A DNA stretch of 21,599 nt, from positions 1 through 21,599 of IMG/VR virus record IMGVR_UViG_2695420596_000007; one strand, 5' to 3'. Position 1 is the stretch's first letter; every line of letters starts with the position of its first letter. Shown piece by piece: positions 5,436 to 17,225 of this stretch. The position numbers and the translations under genes are program-made. A model generated the notes under the pieces. It was not told the origin of the DNA. It did no database searches and saw only the letters and a list, made by a program, of their open reading frames with translations. Source of the DNA: a virus (taxonomy: Duplodnaviria > Heunggongvirae > Uroviricota > Caudoviricetes).

Positions 5436-5512
5436 TTACCGTTGAGGTAATAATTATGCGTATCTGGTTTGATGTCAATAGGTATGAGTTGAAAAAATTA
5501 CCCATTAGGTAA
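5436..5512. promoter_or_regulatory. Two copies of the TTACC-N5-GGTAA palindrome (5436-5450, 5498-5512; centres 62 bp apart) flanking a sigma70-like promoter for the leftward early operon
   Basis: TTACCgttgaGGTAA and TTACCcattaGGTAA read directly; minus-strand -35 TTGACA (plus coordinates 5473-5478) lies between them, with a weaker -10-like TAATTA. Confidence 0.6.
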
Positions 5513-6209: not shown

Positions 6210-6272
6210 TTACCCAACAGGTAAATGCACCTCATAGGTAACTATCCTTGATTTTTGTTACCTTATGGGTGA
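6210..6272. promoter_or_regulatory. Three-site operator cluster between the repressor and Cro-like genes (6210-6224 TTACCcaacaGGTAA; 6227-6241 GCACCtcataGGTAA; 6258-6272 TTACCttatgGGTGA)
   Basis: Palindromes read directly; the arrangement parallels a lambda OR1-3 style divergent control region. Confidence 0.6.
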
Positions 6273-6594: not shown

Positions 6595-6609
6595 GTACCT
6601 TAAAGGTAA
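6595..6609. promoter_or_regulatory. Palindrome GTACCttaaaGGTAA (variant of TTACC-N5-GGTAA) just after the terminator
   Basis: Read directly; core TACC-N5-GGTA is perfect. Confidence 0.45.
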
Positions 6610-8516: not shown

Positions 8517-8593
8517 TTACCTGCCAGGTAATAAAATATTCTAAAATCTATTGATTTTGTGTCTTATGTGGTTTTTAATTACCTCAGGGGTAA
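8517..8593. promoter_or_regulatory. Two copies of TTACC-N5-GGTAA (8517-8531, 8579-8593; centres 62 bp apart) flanking a promoter-like TTGATT-N17-TTTAAT; the downstream site overlaps the RBS of the gene starting at 8597
   Basis: TTACCtgccaGGTAA and TTACCtcaggGGTAA read directly. Confidence 0.6.
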
Positions 8594-13189: not shown

Positions 13190-13204
13190 TTACCTTTGGG
13201 GTAA
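13190..13204. promoter_or_regulatory. Palindrome TTACCtttggGGTAA upstream of the small membrane peptide gene
   Basis: Read directly. Confidence 0.5.
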
Positions 13205-13269: not shown

Positions 13270-13920
13270 TCAGAAGAACCCTGCCTTGTCGTTGATGTAC
13301 TCCGCGTGTGTCTGGATATCACGCAGGCATTTACTCACACCGACGATGTAGCAGAACATGGTGGTCAGCTCCGCCGCCGCGCCCGATACGTCGTGCCCGT
13401 CTTCCTGTAACTTGTTCAGCAGATTCATCAGCAGTGAGTTCTCCGTCAGGCCGAGAACACCAGACGGCGAGTGAATCAGGCTGCGGTAGCCGGGCTTCAG
13501 CGGGGCGCTGTATTCTTTTTTGTCTTCCAGCTTGATCGCCTCCATAATGGCGGGCATGAAGCCTGACAAGACCTTCTCCACTTTTGTTTCTTGTTGTCTT
13601 AAACGTTTCTCGCATTCAATGAAGTAGCGTCGTACCTGACGACCTTTTTCGTTACGCTCGACCATCGCCAGTTCTTTGGCTGTATCGAGGGTGAGGTGGT
13701 AGTCTTTTGCAGGACGTCCTCTGCCTATTTTTTCCCGAACTTGGGAAATAATCATAAAGTCTTGATTTTCAACGAAACCATATTCAGTAATTCGTTCGAC
13801 AATCCACGAAGCAAATCGCTTACCCACATCGAGGAAAGTGTGTAAATCACGGGCATTAACGAGAAGAGCGGTTTCGTTGGATATAGTGCCGTTGAATACG
13901 GGGATGAGTTGAGCGTTCAT
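13270..13920 (-). CDS. Phage antirepressor (N-terminal Ant/Bro-like domain plus C-terminal antirepressor domain)
   Basis: 216-aa ORF; SD GGAGA; its C-terminal region is homologous to the small ORF at 14238-14495. Confidence 0.75.
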   Translation of the reverse strand: MNAQLIPVFNGTISNETALLVNARDLHTFLDVGKRFASWIVERITEYGFVENQDFMIISQVREKIGRGRPAKDYHLTLDTAKELAMVERNEKGRQVRRYFIECEKRLRQQETKVEKVLSGFMPAIMEAIKLEDKKEYSAPLKPGYRSLIHSPSGVLGLTENSLLMNLLNKLQEDGHDVSGAAAELTTMFCYIVGVSKCLRDIQTHAEYINDKAGFF

Positions 13921-14078
13921 TATGGCGTCTCCACTTAGCGAATTACATCACCACCGCTGAGACCAATCAGATGGTGGTGAACTGAACGGAGTTGGTCTTA
14001 CCGGCCTAAGTGGTACCGGCGTCCTTTCGGACCCCCATTCAGCCCACCATAATTCTGGCATGACTGTGCTATACGCAT

Positions 14079-14101
14079 AAAAAAACCACGTCTGGCGTGG
14101 T
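14079..14101 (-). terminator. Rho-independent terminator on the minus strand between the two antirepressor genes
   Basis: Stem ACCACG/CGTGGT with a 5-nt loop, followed on the minus strand by a run of 6 T. Confidence 0.6.
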
Positions 14102-14191
14102 ATGCGCCACTTAGTAATCCGGGAGACCAATCCCGGCACTGGATTTTGCCAGTGCCCGATTACTATGGCACAAGAGGAGTGCAATGTAAAT

Positions 14192-14206
14192 TTACCGTAA
14201 AGGTAA
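14192..14206. promoter_or_regulatory. Palindrome TTACCgtaaaGGTAA
   Basis: Read directly. Confidence 0.5.
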
Positions 14207-14237
14207 ATATAAGCACTCCATTTGGTAATTGCAAACC

Positions 14238-14495
14238 TTATCTGGTTTGTTTTCGTAATTGTTCGGCACAATAGTCGAGATGTGTTTGCAGATCCCGCAT
14301 AGACATCTGTGAGCTGGTGACGTAGTTAATCAGTGCAGTCAGTTCGGCAAGTGGGCCATCGACATTAAATCCATCCTTATCGAGATCCCGGAGTAATTTC
14401 ATCAAGTGCGATCCCTCCACCAGTGACCTGACGCCTCCCGGCGTGTGAATCCTTTCGGTAAATCCGTCTTCCAGTGGATAGTGATACTGCTGCAT
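14238..14495 (-). CDS. Small antirepressor-like protein (85 aa from ATG 14495), homologous to the C-terminal domain of the large antirepressor
   Basis: HTPGGVRSLVEGSHLMKLLRDLDKDGFNVDGPLAELTALINYV aligns with HSPSGVLGLTENSLLMNLLNKLQEDGHDVSGAAAELTTMFCYI of the 216-aa protein; SD GGAGAAG 5 nt before the ATG. Confidence 0.6.
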   Translation of the reverse strand: MQQYHYPLEDGFTERIHTPGGVRSLVEGSHLMKLLRDLDKDGFNVDGPLAELTALINYVTSSQMSMRDLQTHLDYCAEQLRKQTR

Positions 14496-14516
14496 CTTAT
14501 CTTCTCCATGCAATAA

Positions 14517-14532
14517 CTGTATAAATATACAG
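14517..14532. promoter_or_regulatory. LexA (SOS) box CTGTATAAATATACAG, 22 bp upstream of the small antirepressor start
   Basis: Perfect CTGT-N8-ACAG with an AT-rich spacer, read directly. Confidence 0.75.
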
Positions 14533-14571
14533 TATCAAATAATTTGTTTGCTATCCAGCACGTTTTGCAAA

Positions 14572-14586
14572 TTACCTGAAAGGTAA
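14572..14586. promoter_or_regulatory. Palindrome TTACCtgaaaGGTAA between the LexA box and the tailspike gene
   Basis: Read directly. Confidence 0.5.
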
Positions 14587-14690
14587 TATCTATTCATATT
14601 CACAGCCTTTCTATCCATATGTGGTTTTTCAGGTAATAGAATAACCAGATATGCGGCGCAACGGGTGCTGCGACTATCTGGAGATTTAAC

Positions 14691-17225
14691 ATGACGGTCT
14701 CAACCGAAGTTGACCACAACGAATACACCGGCAACGGCGTTACGACATCGTTTCCGTATACCTTCCGCATTTTCAACAAATCCGACCTGGTTGTTCAGGT
14801 GGTTGACCTTGATGAAAATATCGCTGTGCTGGCTCTTGATACTGATTACACTGTCACTGGGGCTGGTGGATATAACGGCGGTAATGTAATTCTGTCGAAG
14901 GCGTTAGCTAACGGTTATCAGATTTCTATATCACGAGAGCTACCAGTTACGCAGGAAACTGATCTGCGAAATCAGGGAAAGTTTTTCGCTGAGGTGCATG
15001 AAGACGCGTTCGATAAGTTAACGATGCTGATCCAGCAGGTTCGAAGTTGGTTTGGCCTGGCACTGCGCAAGCCATCATTTGTGGCAAACTATTACGATGC
15101 TTTGAACAATTACATCCGAAATTTGCGCGATCCTTCAAAGCCTCAAGATGCAGCAACGAAAAATTATGTTGATTCTGTTGTTGATACAAATTTAAGTAGA
15201 ACATTAAGAGTACCAGAGCCAATAAATTCTTTCCCAGGCGCCGAAACGCGGGCAAATATGATGCCTGCCTTCGATAGTCAAGGGAATGCTGTTCTGGTTC
15301 TACCCCCATCAGGTTCTGCATCGGATGTTTTGCTACAACTTGCAAGCGCCGAAGATGGGAAAGGCGATTCACTGGTTGCAGTCAGGCAACCCATTACTGG
15401 TGCTTTATCTCGCACTCAGCACGATAAAAATCAGGATTTCATCACACCACAGGACTTTGGTGTAAAGATGGATGGTACTGACTCTACTGATGCGATCAAC
15501 GCTTTCGTGGAGTATGTGAACGCGATACCTAATACTGATGGAATTCCTGTTGGAGTGCTATTCCCACCAGGTACAATCTCATATTCTAAAGACATGCATT
15601 TCACCAGACCGGTAAGAATTATCTGCGAAGGAACTGTATTCCATTACTTAGGCTCAGGAAACGCCTTTAACATGGGCCCATATGATCTAAGCGGAGACTA
15701 CAACGGAGCTACTGGTAAGACCCCGTTTAATAAGCACTACAGTATTGAAGGTGCTGTTTTTAAGGGGGGGGCAACATCAGGATATGCAATAAATTTTGCT
15801 CATTGGGTAACTTATTGCGATGTATCTAATTGCGAATTCCGTGCGTTTGGCGGAGATGGCTCCTGGGCTGTTAATGCCGAATTTAACAACTGGAGGGTAT
15901 CGGTAAGGGATTGCTTGTTCGAGGCCCATACCGATTTCATAGCTGATAGGGTGAATACACGGAACTTTGTGCGCTGCCCTGGTTACTACGAAGATCATGT
16001 TCTTGGTAAAGTTGTTGATCTTTGGAGTACATTGTTGACGGCAACAAACAATAAGGTGGAAGGTGTTGGCTGGTCGCGTGGCGGGATAGCTTACTGGATT
16101 AGCGGTTGGCGCACGGTTATTGAAGGAGGAGCAAACAATGGCATGCTTACTGATGTTATCATTTCAGCTGGTTGTGCAGATGTAACACTTCTAAATTTCT
16201 ACTCAGAGAAACCATTTGGCCCAGAGGAAGGGGAGGTAATTAAATGCATCCAGCTATCATATGATGATGACCCATATTTTACAGGCAGTAAGGCCGATGG
16301 CGGTGCCGGAATGGTTGATAATGGTGCATCTACATTTGTAAAAAGATTAACAGTAAATGGTAGTTATGCAAATATGGGGCAACCAAATCATGTCAGCCAG
16401 TTCATACACTTTTCTCAAAGTGTTGCATTGGAAAACTTCTGCATTGATAAAGCAACATTCACCCATTATTACTATCCAATTGTTACCCAGCCAGAAATAC
16501 CAGGACATCGTAATTGGTATATTGGGGATGTAAGATTTGATGGGGATTTAGATAAGATAAGCTATCTTATAGAAACTCAATATGCTGGAGTTTATAAACC
16601 ATCATATAGCTCAAGGGTAAAAAATCTTTTAAAAGTTTTTGACGCGTCATCTATAGTTACAGGTTTTGACTCATCAGCACCAGTAAATACTAATTTTGGA
16701 ACTGTCGGTATATCAGCTATATCTGATGGAACCGGAGGTTCAATAAGATTGACAAAGCGAGCAACTAATAATACCTCGGAAGGAGGATATGAACGCAACA
16801 GATTAGATATGCAAAGAAATGCTTTTCAGCTTTCGTGCATAACGCCAGCAACTAGTCAAACTTATTTACAGATGGTTTTTGAAGTTGATATTAGCCCTTC
16901 AAAAATTCAAGGAGTTACTGCTTGCTTGTCATTTATAGCAAAAAGTTACACAAGTGGAGGTGTTTTGTTAACTGGAACGATAGTTTCTCCATCTGGTATA
17001 AATACTGCAGGTGACACGGATGTACTGGTTGCGTCTGATGGAAATTTCTATAGATATTTTATACATTTCCGTGTAGAACCAATGACTTTGGGGGCGAATT
17101 TAGATTCGCCTGATAAAGTATTGGTAAACATTAATCTTCCGGTTGGTAAGGTTTTTGATGTTGACTTGGCGTCACTTGTATTTACTATAGGTGACATCGC
17201 TTATCCTTTAGCTGCATGTTACTAG
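14691..17225 (+). CDS. Tailspike / tail fibre with a T7 gp17-type N-terminal adaptor domain and a central beta-helix-like (candidate depolymerase) domain
   Basis: 844-aa ORF; N-terminus EYTGNGVTTSFPYTF..DLVVQVVD..DTDYTVTG parallels the T7 tail-fibre N-terminal domain as recalled; repetitive G/N/S/T-rich central region typical of pectate-lyase-fold tailspikes; SD GGAG. Confidence 0.8.
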   Translation: MTVSTEVDHNEYTGNGVTTSFPYTFRIFNKSDLVVQVVDLDENIAVLALDTDYTVTGAGGYNGGNVILSKALANGYQISISRELPVTQETDLRNQGKFFAEVHEDAFDKLTMLIQQVRSWFGLALRKPSFVANYYDALNNYIRNLRDPSKPQDAATKNYVDSVVDTNLSRTLRVPEPINSFPGAETRANMMPAFDSQGNAVLVLPPSGSASDVLLQLASAEDGKGDSLVAVRQPITGALSRTQHDKNQDFITPQDFGVKMDGTDSTDAINAFVEYVNAIPNTDGIPVGVLFPPGTISYSKDMHFTRPVRIICEGTVFHYLGSGNAFNMGPYDLSGDYNGATGKTPFNKHYSIEGAVFKGGATSGYAINFAHWVTYCDVSNCEFRAFGGDGSWAVNAEFNNWRVSVRDCLFEAHTDFIADRVNTRNFVRCPGYYEDHVLGKVVDLWSTLLTATNNKVEGVGWSRGGIAYWISGWRTVIEGGANNGMLTDVIISAGCADVTLLNFYSEKPFGPEEGEVIKCIQLSYDDDPYFTGSKADGGAGMVDNGASTFVKRLTVNGSYANMGQPNHVSQFIHFSQSVALENFCIDKATFTHYYYPIVTQPEIPGHRNWYIGDVRFDGDLDKISYLIETQYAGVYKPSYSSRVKNLLKVFDASSIVTGFDSSAPVNTNFGTVGISAISDGTGGSIRLTKRATNNTSEGGYERNRLDMQRNAFQLSCITPATSQTYLQMVFEVDISPSKIQGVTACLSFIAKSYTSGGVLLTGTIVSPSGINTAGDTDVLVASDGNFYRYFIHFRVEPMTLGANLDSPDKVLVNINLPVGKVFDVDLASLVFTIGDIAYPLAACY

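What the first reader, a model, noticed from the sequence alone, without database searches (positions are those of the whole stretch)
13921..14237. Highly structured 317-bp untranslated spacer between the two antirepressor genes
There is no convincing ORF on the transcribed (minus) strand, yet the spacer holds several stable hairpins (TCACCACC..GGTGGTGA at about 13957-13988, GTCCtttcGGAC at 14025-14036, CCGGGA..TCCCGG and GGCACTGG..CCAGTGCC at about 14121-14157), a terminator (14079-14101) and one TTACC-N5-GGTAA site (14192-14206). This could be a small regulatory RNA or an attenuator coupling the LexA-controlled transcript to the large antirepressor.
Basis: seen in the sequence. Interest (0 to 1): 0.45.

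Follow-up and report, generated by a model that had tools for sequence, protein, structure and literature searches.

The report
IsrK–C4 antisense switch guarding antirepressor
The "structured spacer" is real but ordinary: it holds two already catalogued phage small RNAs (an IsrK-like RNA and a C4-type antisense RNA) that together control translation of the prophage's antirepressor gene, as in phage P1 and Salmonella Gifsy-1.

Summary
In detail: every listed element exists, though some coordinates are 4-9 nt off. The 317-nt spacer folds far better than shuffles (z about -7). On the minus strand, Rfam finds two full-length curated families above their gathering scores: isrK (14155..14079, 67.7 bits) and C4 antisense RNA (14054..13970, 61.2 bits).

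The window is a phiV10/epsilon15-like (Uetakevirus) E. coli prophage. The spacer is a compact P1-immI / Gifsy-1-type cassette:
- a promoter with an abutting TTACC-N5-GGTAA repressor operator;
- an IsrK-like sRNA carrying sites a1 and b1 plus the terminator;
- a tRNA-like C4 RNA with single-stranded a' and b';
- a hairpin displaying a2;
- b2 overlapping the Shine-Dalgarno of the AntA-type antirepressor gene.

All 16 modules taken from 14 other phage records (P1-like, APSE-2, VT2-Sakai, Yersinia, Klebsiella and others) have the same order. The three a sites and the three b sites co-vary. Among 80 distinct C4 sequences, 49 carry matched triple sites, against 1.3 when flanks are swapped.

The likely mechanism is C4 blocking ant translation, with IsrK/a1b1 acting as a decoy that relieves it. 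Local differences: no icd/orf45 coupling ORF, and a LexA-box gene upstream. Known kind; low novelty.

The parts
14192..14206 (.). Palindromic operator TTACC-GTAAA-GGTAA, abutting the -35 hexamer of the cassette promoter
   Evidence: There are 8 exact copies in the window against 0.56 expected. The same 17-mer type (ATTACC-N5-GGTAAT) is annotated 'protein_bind: repressor, lysogeny' in epsilon15 AY150271. It sits at the same place in the phiV10, Tyrion, two Klebsiella and TL-2011b loci.
14162..14190 (-). Promoter-like site of the cassette: -35 TTTACA (14190..14185), 17-nt spacer, TG-extended -10 CATAGT (14167..14162); inferred start at G14155
   Evidence: (9/12 match, TG present). The Rfam isrK model starts at 14155, 7 nt after the -10. 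This is a consensus match only; the start site has not been mapped.
14079..14155 (-). IsrK-like sRNA, equivalent to the P1 'a1b1' leader: hairpin 1 (14155..14136), hairpin 2 (14136..14119), linker, intrinsic terminator
   Evidence: Rfam RF01394, 67.7 bits (gathering 50), model 1-77/77, E = 8e-13. c4-a1b1 RF03163 overlaps it at 39.9 bits, below its gathering score of 46.7. Hairpin 1 has 5 of 6 pairs with two-sided changes.
14124..14131 (-). a1 site AUUGGUCU in the loop of IsrK hairpin 2, complementary to C4 a'
   Evidence: For a'-a1, 5 of 7 pairs co-vary and 99.2% of cells are paired across 17 modules.
14107..14114 (-). b1 site CUAAGUGG in the IsrK linker, complementary to the C4 b' loop
   Evidence: The 8-mer occurs only 3 times in the window (b1, b2 and the complement of b'); 0.44 expected.
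14079..14101 (-). Intrinsic terminator of IsrK: ACCACG-ccaga-CGUGGU followed by a U-run
   Evidence: part of the isrK model match.
13970..14054 (-). C4-type antisense RNA: tRNA-like closing stem (AUGGUGGG.../...UUCACCACCAU) followed by CCA, with two internal hairpins
   Evidence: Rfam RF01695, 61.2 bits (gathering 45), model 1-87/87, E = 7e-10. The MFE fold, -41.2 kcal/mol, matches the model. The closing stem is 100% paired in 17 modules, and hairpin I has 5 of 5 pairs with two-sided changes.
14006..14013 (-). b' (CCACUUAG) in the loop of C4 hairpin II
13991..13998 (-). a' (AGACCAAC) in the single-stranded junction of C4
13948..13980 (-). Hairpin UCACCACC...GGUGGUGA with inner stem CUGA/UCAG, displaying a2 (AUUGGUCU, 13967..13960) in its loop. 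Its 5' arm is the 3' arm of the C4 closing stem, so the two folds are mutually exclusive.
   Evidence: the outer and inner stems both carry compensatory changes; a'-a2: 5 of 7 pairs co-vary, 100% paired.
13928..13938 (-). b2 (CUAAGUGG, 13938..13931) overlapping the Shine-Dalgarno GGAGA (13932..13928) of ant
   Evidence: In the window, a2-N21-b2 occurs only here.
13919..13925 (-). CCAUAAU at the ant start codon. It can pair (6 of 7) with the 5' arm AUGGUGG of C4 (14050..14044) in the unprocessed transcript.
   Evidence: RNAalifold consensus. A perfect YYAYYAU lies 43-61 nt after C4 in 43 of 80 distinct modules (46 with one anywhere in the 110 nt scanned; controls 2 and 6). It probably corresponds to helix d-II of Gifsy-1 (PMC4825925; my mapping).
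13270..13920 (-). ant, a 216-aa AntA/AntB-type antirepressor: the regulated gene
   Evidence: PF08346 E = 7e-28; PHROG 377 'anti-repressor Ant' E = 3e-65.
14238..14495 (-). Upstream 85-aa gene (start taken at ATG 14495), a paralogue of the Ant C-terminal part. It is context, not part of the RNA cassette.
   Evidence: 41% identity, E = 7e-21; PHROG 450. phiV10p24 and epsilon15 gp19 are its homologues.
14516..14534 (-). LexA-box-like palindrome TACTGTATATTTATACAGT upstream of the 85-aa gene (context)
   Evidence: the only such site in the window.

Best explanation
The spacer is a secondary-immunity RNA cassette of the P1 immI / Gifsy-1 isrK type, carried by a phiV10-like (Uetakevirus) prophage.

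Proposed sequence of events:
1. A sigma-70 promoter, with the prophage repressor's TTACC-N5-GGTAA operator abutting its -35, starts transcription at about 14155.
2. Most transcripts stop at the intrinsic terminator. This gives a ~77-nt IsrK-like sRNA carrying two short sites, a1 in a hairpin loop and b1.
3. Read-through transcripts continue into an ~85-nt tRNA-shaped C4 RNA, which is probably cut out of the precursor as in P1. Its unpaired segments a' and b' are complementary to a1/b1 upstream and to a2/b2 downstream.
4. b2 overlaps the Shine-Dalgarno sequence of ant, so C4 bound to a2/b2 blocks ribosome entry and keeps the antirepressor off.
5. The IsrK/a1b1 RNA offers the same two sites as a decoy. 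In cis it locks the precursor; in trans it titrates C4 or remodels the leader and so allows Ant synthesis.

Shown here: the family memberships, the anatomy, the complementarities and their co-variation.
Inferred from P1 and Gifsy-1 experiments: the direction of each regulatory effect, the processing, and the partial terminator read-through.

Unlike P1 (icd) and Gifsy-1 (orf45), no coupling ORF lies between C4 and ant. Control here should therefore act directly on the ant ribosome-binding site.
For: - Family membership. Rfam gathering-score, full-length hits to isrK and C4 lie in tandem on the minus strand.
- Conserved order. isrK, a 22-26-nt gap, C4, the a2 hairpin, then b2 at the start of the next gene: this order is seen in all 16 modules from 14 other phage records. 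They include a P1-like Punavirus where icd follows, phiV10, Tyrion, APSE-2, VT2-Sakai, and Yersinia and Hafnia phages.
- Complementarity. In every locus a' has a 6-9-nt complement both in the IsrK hairpin-2 loop and 2-4 nt after C4. b' has a 6-13-nt complement in the IsrK linker, except in VT2-Sakai where no clear b1 was found. It also has one 0-16 nt before the downstream start codon.
- Co-variation. 5 of 7 a'-a1 pairs and 5 of 7 a'-a2 pairs change on both sides with 99-100% pairing. Overall 98.5% of cells are paired against at most 45% for slid partners, and 0/500 shuffles reach this.
- Swap test. Among 80 distinct C4 sequences (IMG/VR, phage records and the window), 49 have at least two segments whose exact complement of 7 nt or more occurs both upstream and downstream. 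With flanks swapped between loci the figure is 1.3 +/- 1.0 (maximum 5). There are 38 distinct a/b codes.
- Target. b2 overlaps GGAG, 8 nt before the ATG of an AntA-type antirepressor.
- Operator. The same sequence type is annotated as the lysogeny-repressor site in epsilon15.
- Literature. P1: C1 represses the c4-icd-ant operon, and full repression of ant needs the C4 antisense RNA (PMC8198154, citing Citron & Schuster 1990). Gifsy-1: IsrK terminator read-through gives an inactive isrK-orf45-anrP mRNA that IsrK activates in trans. The orf45 nucleotide sequence is conserved while its protein sequence is not, and an ~80-nt processed species exists (PMC4825925). [quoted passage not shown]
Against: - No expression data exist for this prophage. 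The promoter is only a 9/12 consensus match. Processing, Hfq binding and terminator read-through are untested.
- The stoichiometry is awkward for a simple decoy model. Each initiation makes one a1b1 copy but only read-through makes C4. Experiments in P1, P4 and Gifsy-1 assign partly different roles to the a1b1/seqA/IsrK element.
- c4-a1b1 (RF03163) scores 39.9 bits, below its gathering score of 46.7.
- The long-range helix at the start codon has one A.G mismatch in this window.
- The control could be transcriptional (termination or Rho polarity) rather than purely translational.
Confidence: 0.85

Rival explanations
1. SOS-coupled attenuator. The spacer mainly works in cis on transcripts that start at the LexA-box promoter upstream of the 85-aa gene. 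DNA damage sends extra transcripts through a1b1, the terminator and C4. The extra a1b1-bearing RNA, or the terminator read-through, then decides whether the large Ant is made.
For: - A near-consensus LexA box lies at 14516-14534.
- No terminator is predicted between the 85-aa gene and the cassette.
- The 85-aa gene directly followed by the cassette is conserved in the phiV10 clade across Escherichia, Enterobacter and Klebsiella phages (14 records cover at least 80% of the query).
- The 85-aa protein is a paralogue of the Ant C-terminus.
Against: - The cassette has its own promoter-like site and operator.
- It occurs without any LexA-box gene in most other phage types.
- TL-2011b and Klebsiella ST512-KPC3phi13.3 have about 0.3-0.9 kb inserted between the two.
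- epsilon15 keeps the LexA-box gene without the cassette.
The coupling would therefore be a local add-on, not the function of the RNA elements.
Confidence: 0.25
2. Termination-control variant, as described for P4 CI RNA and N15 (recalled from the literature; P4 is summarised in PMC4825925). The C4-like RNA pairs with the a/b sites mainly to cause premature transcription termination or Rho polarity upstream of ant, rather than to block its ribosome-binding site.
For: - The same RNA families are used by P4 and N15 (PMC3632133).
- In P1, repression of ant transcription follows from blocked icd translation (established knowledge; Biere et al. 1992, from memory).
- The a1 and b1 sites sit immediately upstream of an intrinsic terminator.
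Against: - b2 overlaps the ant Shine-Dalgarno sequence here and in every Uetakevirus-type locus, which points to a direct translational block.
- No intrinsic terminator is predicted between C4 and ant.
- There is no upstream coupling ORF through which polarity could be relayed.
Confidence: 0.15
3. The spacer encodes a protein (the 107-aa TTG ORF 13948..14271, or the 26-aa ORF 13998..14078), and the hairpins are incidental.
For: Both ORFs are formally open on the transcribed strand. In some lambdoid relatives, annotated CDSs run through the homologous region.
Against: - The frame has 2-3 stops in the nearest relatives.
- Variation follows base-pairing rules, not codon rules.
- Both halves match full-length curated RNA models.
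- For Gifsy-1 orf45 the nucleotide sequence is conserved but the amino-acid sequence is not (PMC4825925).
Confidence: 0.02

Closest known systems
Bacteriophage P1/P7 immI operon (Op51-P51, a1 b1, c4, a2 b2, icd, ant1/2)
   Same: - A repressor-controlled promoter.
- a1/b1 sites upstream and a2/b2 sites downstream of a tRNA-like C4 antisense RNA.
- b2 at a ribosome-binding site, with an antirepressor as the final target.
- a/b sequences acting as specificity (heteroimmunity) determinants.

A P1-like Punavirus locus aligns module for module. It scores 75.9 bits on C4 and 49.5 bits on isrK for its a1b1 region.
   Different: - No icd-like ORF here: b2 covers the Shine-Dalgarno of ant itself.
- The Ant is a 216-aa AntA-type protein, not P1 Ant1/2.
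- The operator is the Uetakevirus TTACC-N5-GGTAA, not a C1 operator.
- The host element is an integrated podovirus prophage, not a plasmid prophage.
Salmonella Gifsy-1 isrK-orf45-anrP locus (Hershko-Shalev et al. 2016, PMC4825925)
   Same: - An IsrK sRNA with its own promoter and a leaky terminator.
- A downstream conserved structured region, matching the processed ~80-nt STnc1160 species, that is complementary to IsrK.
- An antirepressor gene next.
- Alternative long-range helices that hide the translation start.
   Different: In Gifsy-1 an ORF (orf45) that starts in the C4 5' arm is translated and coupled to anrP through an AUGA overlap. Here that AUG is followed by a stop after three codons (AUG GUG GGC UGA), so coupling is impossible. 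The downstream consequences in Gifsy-1 (AntQ, growth arrest) are specific to that prophage.
[quoted passage not shown]
   Same: Structural homologues of IsrK and C4 are used as an RNA immunity system (PMC3632133).
   Different: In those elements the RNA promotes premature transcription termination of replication or anti-immunity genes. Here the target geometry points to a block at the ribosome-binding site.
P22 immI sar RNA
   Same: A small RNA that limits antirepressor (ant) translation in a temperate podovirus (PMC12197685).
   Different: sar is a cis-encoded, fully complementary antisense transcript from the opposite strand. It has no structural or sequence relation, and there is no Rfam match to it here.

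Membership tests
C4 antisense RNA (Rfam RF01695) | Covariance-model score at or above the curated gathering score (45 bits), over the full model | tested here: met
   61.2 bits, model positions 1-87/87, E = 7e-10, at 14054..13970 on the minus strand.
C4 antisense RNA (Rfam RF01695) | Long closing stem with two internal hairpins, leaving the hairpin-II loop (b') and the 3' junction (a') unpaired | tested here: met
   The MFE fold reproduces it. The closing stem is 100% paired, and hairpin I has 5 of 5 pairs with two-sided changes in 17 modules.
C4 antisense RNA (Rfam RF01695) | a' and b' complementary to paired target sites a2/b2 in the co-transcribed downstream leader, with b2 at a ribosome-binding site | tested here: met
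   a2 is at 13960-13967. b2 is at 13931-13938 and overlaps GGAG. Co-variation. Swap control.
C4 antisense RNA (Rfam RF01695) | Excised from a longer precursor by RNase P (P1/P7; from memory, Hartmann et al. 1995) | not testable with these tools
   There is only a tRNA-like acceptor stem followed by CCA (…CACCA-CCA-UC).
P1-type immI operon | Small icd-like ORF between c4 and ant, whose translation is the direct target of C4 | tested here: not met
   No ORF starts between C4 and ant. b2 lies 10 nt before the ant ATG. The P1-like, phiP27, PPyecE, PhiR47_1 and Hafnia loci have a b2-GGAGGCTGCCA(A/T)(T/C)ATGGCTAC… start instead; it is annotated as Icd only in the P1-like record.
IsrK Hfq-binding RNA (Rfam RF01394) | Covariance-model score at or above the gathering score (50 bits), full length, including the terminator hairpin and U-tail | tested here: met
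   67.7 bits, model positions 1-77/77, E = 8e-13, at 14155..14079 on the minus strand.
IsrK Hfq-binding RNA (Rfam RF01394) | Own promoter immediately upstream | tested here: inconclusive
   TTTACA-17-CATAGT with TG ends 7 nt before model position 1. The region holds no more promoter-like matches than shuffles do (4 against 3.5).
IsrK Hfq-binding RNA (Rfam RF01394) | Partial terminator read-through into an antirepressor mRNA that IsrK activates in trans; Hfq binding | not testable with these tools
   Known for Gifsy-1 only (PMC4825925).
Gifsy-1 isrK-orf45-anrP arrangement | orf45 translated from the AUG in the C4 5' arm and coupled to the antirepressor start (AUGA) | tested here: not met
   AUG GUG GGC UGA stops after three codons.
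c4-a1b1 motif (Rfam RF03163) | Score at or above the gathering score (46.7 bits) | tested here: not met
   39.9 bits, E = 1.6e-8, at 14168..14116. The a1/b1 complementarity that the motif stands for is present.

The most novel reading that the evidence does not exclude
In phiV10-type prophages the RNA cassette may have been wired to the SOS response. Transcripts from the LexA-box promoter of the small Ant-paralogue gene read into the cassette. They would supply extra a1b1 decoy sequence that titrates C4, so DNA damage would unlock the second, larger antirepressor in a feed-forward step without any coupling ORF. Separately, the a/b sites form a large combinatorial immunity code: at least 38 codes among 80 C4 sequences, with a and b reassorting independently. 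That goes well beyond the two P1/P7 specificities usually cited.
Probability: 0.2. Interest if true: 0.45.

Novelty: already known. Interest (0 to 1): 0.2.

Why it matters
Practical value only.

- The two RNA genes are not annotated in the phage records (phiv142-3, phiV10) or in the RefSeq E. coli genome checked. The cassette is nevertheless present in at least 281 of 5,426 complete E. coli genomes.
- Annotating it explains how these prophages keep a potent antirepressor silent.
- It predicts which co-resident prophages share or differ in RNA immunity: same a/b code means cross-repression.
- It flags over-extended CDS calls that run through the RNAs in some lambdoid records.
- No open question is resolved.

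Tried and rejected
- tRNA/tmRNA scan of the window: nothing found, so C4 is tRNA-like only in shape.
- Low-threshold Rfam scan of 13850-14650: beyond isrK, C4 and c4-a1b1 there were only chance-level hits with E > 5 (snoRNAs, UPD-PK2, psRNA6), which I rejected.
- Coding reading of the 107-aa and 26-aa ORFs: rejected, because the frame is broken in close relatives and variation follows pairing.
- DNA-level reading of the hairpins, prompted by both strands folding equally well: rejected, because many conserved pairs are G-U on the minus strand.
- Extra C4 targets elsewhere in the window: none. a+b in tandem occurs only at the ant leader, and the b 8-mer occurs only within the cassette.
- Terminator hairpin and the b sites in the formal pair count: MAFFT puts them out of register across loci, so I did not count them. 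The b sites rest on the per-locus table and the swap test instead.
- A convincing sigma-70 promoter for the LexA-box gene could not be placed by eye.
- Pfam gave nothing significant for the 85-aa protein.

Full report
**Observation**

The window region 13921-14237 lies between a 216-aa ORF (13920..13270, minus) and a small ORF ending at 14238 (minus).
- TCACCACC/GGTGGTGA at 13948-13980;
- GTCC-tttc-GGAC at 14021-14032;
- CCGGGA/TCCCGG at 14119-14136;
- GGCACTGG/CCAGTGCC at 14135-14156;
- the terminator at 14079-14101;
- TTACC-N5-GGTAA at 14192-14206.

The spacer folds at -131.3 kcal/mol against -94.6 +/- 5.2 for shuffles (z = -7.0). The complementary strand folds equally well (z = -7.4), so energy alone does not choose the strand.

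**What it is**

An Rfam scan of the whole window gives exactly two hits above gathering score. Both are full length, on the minus strand and inside the spacer:
- isrK (RF01394): 14155..14079, 67.7 bits, gathering score 50;
- C4 antisense RNA (RF01695): 14054..13970, 61.2 bits, gathering score 45.

A permissive scan adds c4-a1b1 (RF03163) over the 5' two-thirds of the isrK hit, at 39.9 bits. That is below its gathering score of 46.7, with E = 1.6e-8. There are no tRNAs.

The flanking proteins are an AntA/AntB-type antirepressor (PF08346, E = 7e-28; PHROG 377) and an 85-aa protein. The latter is 41% identical to the Ant C-terminal 78 residues (E = 7e-21).

The window is a Uetakevirus prophage of E. 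coli. It is 99.1% identical to phage phiv142-3 and about 90% to phiV10. It matches at least 80% of the query in 281 of 5,426 complete E. coli genomes.

**Anatomy (minus strand, 5' to 3')**

| Element | Coordinates |
|---|---|
| Operator TTACCTTTACGGTAA | 14206..14192 |
| -35 TTTACA | 14190..14185 |
| TG-extended -10 CATAGT | 14167..14162 |
| Inferred start | G14155 |
| IsrK hairpin 1 | 14155..14136 |
| IsrK hairpin 2, with a1 = AUUGGUCU (14131..14124) in its loop | 14136..14119 |
| b1 = CUAAGUGG | 14114..14107 |
| Terminator | 14101..14079 |
| 24-nt gap | 14078..14055 |
| C4 | 14054..13970 |
| b' = CCACUUAG, in the hairpin-II loop | 14013..14006 |
| a' = AGACCAAC, in the 3' junction | 13998..13991 |
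| Hairpin displaying a2 = AUUGGUCU (13967..13960) | 13980..13948 |
| b2 = CUAAGUGG, overlapping the Shine-Dalgarno GGAGA | 13938..13931 |
| ant AUG | 13920 |

The b 8-mer occurs three times in the window, all within the cassette (0.44 expected). The tandem a-N-b arrangement occurs only at the ant leader.

**Comparative evidence**

I took 16 further modules from 14 other phage records: phiV10, a P1-like Punavirus, Tyrion, two Klebsiella phages, APSE-2, VT2-Sakai, phiP27, Yersinia vB_YpM_41, Hafnia yong2, Salmonella SW-37, TL-2011b, PPyecE_EH1910 (two tandem copies), PhiR47_1 and Stx phage P27.

Rfam places isrK, a 22-26-nt gap and then C4 in every one. In the P1-like phage the C4 hit is followed by the annotated icd gene. 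Its a1b1 region scores 49.5 bits on the isrK model. IsrK is therefore the homologue of the P1 a1b1 leader.

A per-locus table shows:
- a' always has a 6-9-nt complement in the IsrK hairpin-2 loop and again 2-4 nt after C4;
- b' has a 6-13-nt complement in the IsrK linker, except in VT2-Sakai, where the best match was a G-U-rich stretch in hairpin 2 and not a credible b1;
- b' also has a complement 0-16 nt before the downstream start codon.

The sequences differ between loci:

| Locus | a | b |
|---|---|---|
| Window | TTGGTCT | CTAAGTGG |
| phiV10 | TTGGCGT | CTAAAAGG |
| APSE-2 | TTGACCT | TAACAAGG |
| phiP27 | TTGGAAC | GCTCAAGG |
| PPyecE copy a | TCGCAG | GTCAACGG |

Counted on a 17-sequence alignment, 98.5% of cells pair against at most 45% when partners are slid. 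Twenty pairs change on both sides. Five of seven a'-a1 pairs and five of seven a'-a2 pairs co-vary, and 0/500 shuffles reach the observed values. Many conserved pairs are G-U on the minus strand, which fixes both the strand and the RNA level.

A pattern scan of IMG/VR added more loci. Among 80 distinct C4 sequences, 49 have at least two segments whose exact complement of 7 nt or more occurs both upstream and downstream. The figure is 1.3 +/- 1.0 (maximum 5) when C4s are paired with flanks from other loci. There are 38 distinct a/b codes, and a and b reassort independently.

RNAalifold also recovers two further structures:
It shares its 5' arm with the C4 closing stem, so the two folds are mutually exclusive.
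- A long-range helix between the C4 5' arm AUGGUGG and the YYAYYAU(G) at the downstream start codon.

A perfect YYAYYAU lies 43-61 nt after C4 in 43 of 80 modules. Counting anywhere in the 110 nt scanned gives 46, against 2 and 6 in controls. The window has CCAUAAU, which pairs at 6 of 7 positions.

**Mechanism**

What follows is established for relatives, not tested here.

- Gifsy-1: transcripts from the isrK promoter partly read through the IsrK terminator. This gives a translationally inactive isrK-orf45-anrP mRNA. IsrK in trans binds the 'orf45' region and activates anrP translation. The orf45 nucleotide sequence is conserved while the protein sequence is not, and an ~80-nt processed species (STnc1160) is made (PMC4825925).
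- Barquist et al. call this the 'IsrK-C4 immunity system'. They equate it with P4 seqA/CI and note similar systems in P1, P7, N15 and lambdoid prophages (PMC3632133).

By homology I infer the following for this prophage:
1. The repressor-controlled promoter makes mostly the 77-nt IsrK-like RNA.
2. Read-through makes C4 and the ant leader.
3. C4 pairs with a2 and b2 and occludes the ant Shine-Dalgarno sequence.
4. IsrK/a1b1 competes for a' and b', which relieves repression.

The TTACC-N5-GGTAA element abutting the -35 is annotated as the lysogeny-repressor binding site in the epsilon15 record. That parallels the C1-controlled operator at the P1 c4-icd-ant promoter.

**Differences from the models**

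- No icd or orf45 equivalent is present. The AUG in the C4 5' arm meets a stop after three codons, and b2 sits 10 nt before the ant AUG. This direct arrangement is shared by phiV10, Tyrion, the Klebsiella phages, TL-2011b and APSE-2.
- The ant gene downstream is exchangeable: AntA-type here, Bro-N type in phiV10.
- epsilon15 and SPN1S-type relatives keep the 85-aa LexA-box gene but lack the whole cassette.
- TL-2011b and a Klebsiella phage have insertions between the two.

Read-through from the LexA-box promoter (box at 14516-14534) is still possible, because no terminator is predicted before the IsrK terminator.

**Rivals**

- Protein coding is rejected: the frame is broken in relatives and variation follows pairing rules.
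- Termination control of the P4/N15 kind cannot be excluded, but it fits the b2/Shine-Dalgarno geometry less well.

**Verdict**

The feature belongs to two curated RNA families in a well-described regulatory arrangement. It is unannotated in the phage and RefSeq records checked but is not new.

Noticed in passing
window 5436-5450, 5498-5512, 6210-6224, 6258-6272, 6595-6609, 8517-8531, 8579-8593, 13190-13204, 14192-14206, 14572-14586: TTACC-N5-GGTAA occurs 8 times exactly, and 11 times with at most 1 mismatch (the eleventh, at 15601-15615, lies inside the tailspike ORF), against 0.56 expected. The ten sites listed are intergenic. They often come in pairs 48-62 bp apart that bracket promoter-like hexamers, e.g. 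TTGACA-17-TAATTA between 5498 and 5436 (minus strand) and TTGATT-17-TTTAAT between 8517 and 8579. The same 17-mer type is annotated as the lysogeny-repressor binding site in epsilon15. It looks like a genome-wide operator set, reminiscent of the scattered P1 C1 operators.
   Followed up: partly
window 14238-14495 (-) and 14516-14534: The small gene behind a near-consensus LexA box encodes an 85-aa protein that is 41% identical to the C-terminal 78 aa of the 216-aa Ant. It may be a stand-alone, SOS-controlled version of the Ant C-terminal domain. Its PHROG family (450) has no assigned function.
   Followed up: partly
L007 1131-1790 (phiP27 L16), L009 988-1671 (Hafnia yong2 'Ash family protein'), L013 1046-1705, L014 770-1918 ('Rha protein'): In several lambdoid phage records, annotated CDSs run straight through the isrK and C4 RNA genes. 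One frame has no stop over the ~309 nt examined in five loci. These are probably over-extended ORF calls whose true start is the b2-GGAGG...ATGGCTAC site, but I did not test this.
   Followed up: no
L013 444-632 and 1100-1288 (PPyecE_EH1910): One prophage carries two tandem isrK-C4 modules with different a/b codes: TCGCAG/GTCAACGG and TTGGCGT/GTTATCGG.
   Followed up: no
L136 (epsilon15) 1474-1860; L011 (TL-2011b) 345-1260: The isrK-C4-ant unit behaves as a mobile cassette. It is absent from epsilon15 and SPN1S-type relatives that keep the 85-aa gene. In TL-2011b it is separated from that gene by a ~0.9-kb insert. The ant gene behind it is swapped between close relatives, and the nucleotide similarity to phiV10-type relatives ends at about window 13947 (TL-2011b and phiV10 themselves share the same Bro-N gene).
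   Followed up: partly
window 14116-14168 vs 14079-14155; L002 1484-1560: Rfam isrK (RF01394, no clan) and c4-a1b1 (RF03163, C4 clan) describe the same bases. The a1b1 region of a P1-like phage scores 49.5 bits on isrK (gathering 50). The two families appear to be one element catalogued twice. A 2025 review still lists IsrK and c4 as unrelated items (PMC12197685).
   Followed up: partly
L010 2017-2091 (Salmonella phage SW-37): There is a strong isrJ (RF01393) hit of 101.7 bits about 650 nt downstream of that phage's isrK-C4 module.
   Followed up: no
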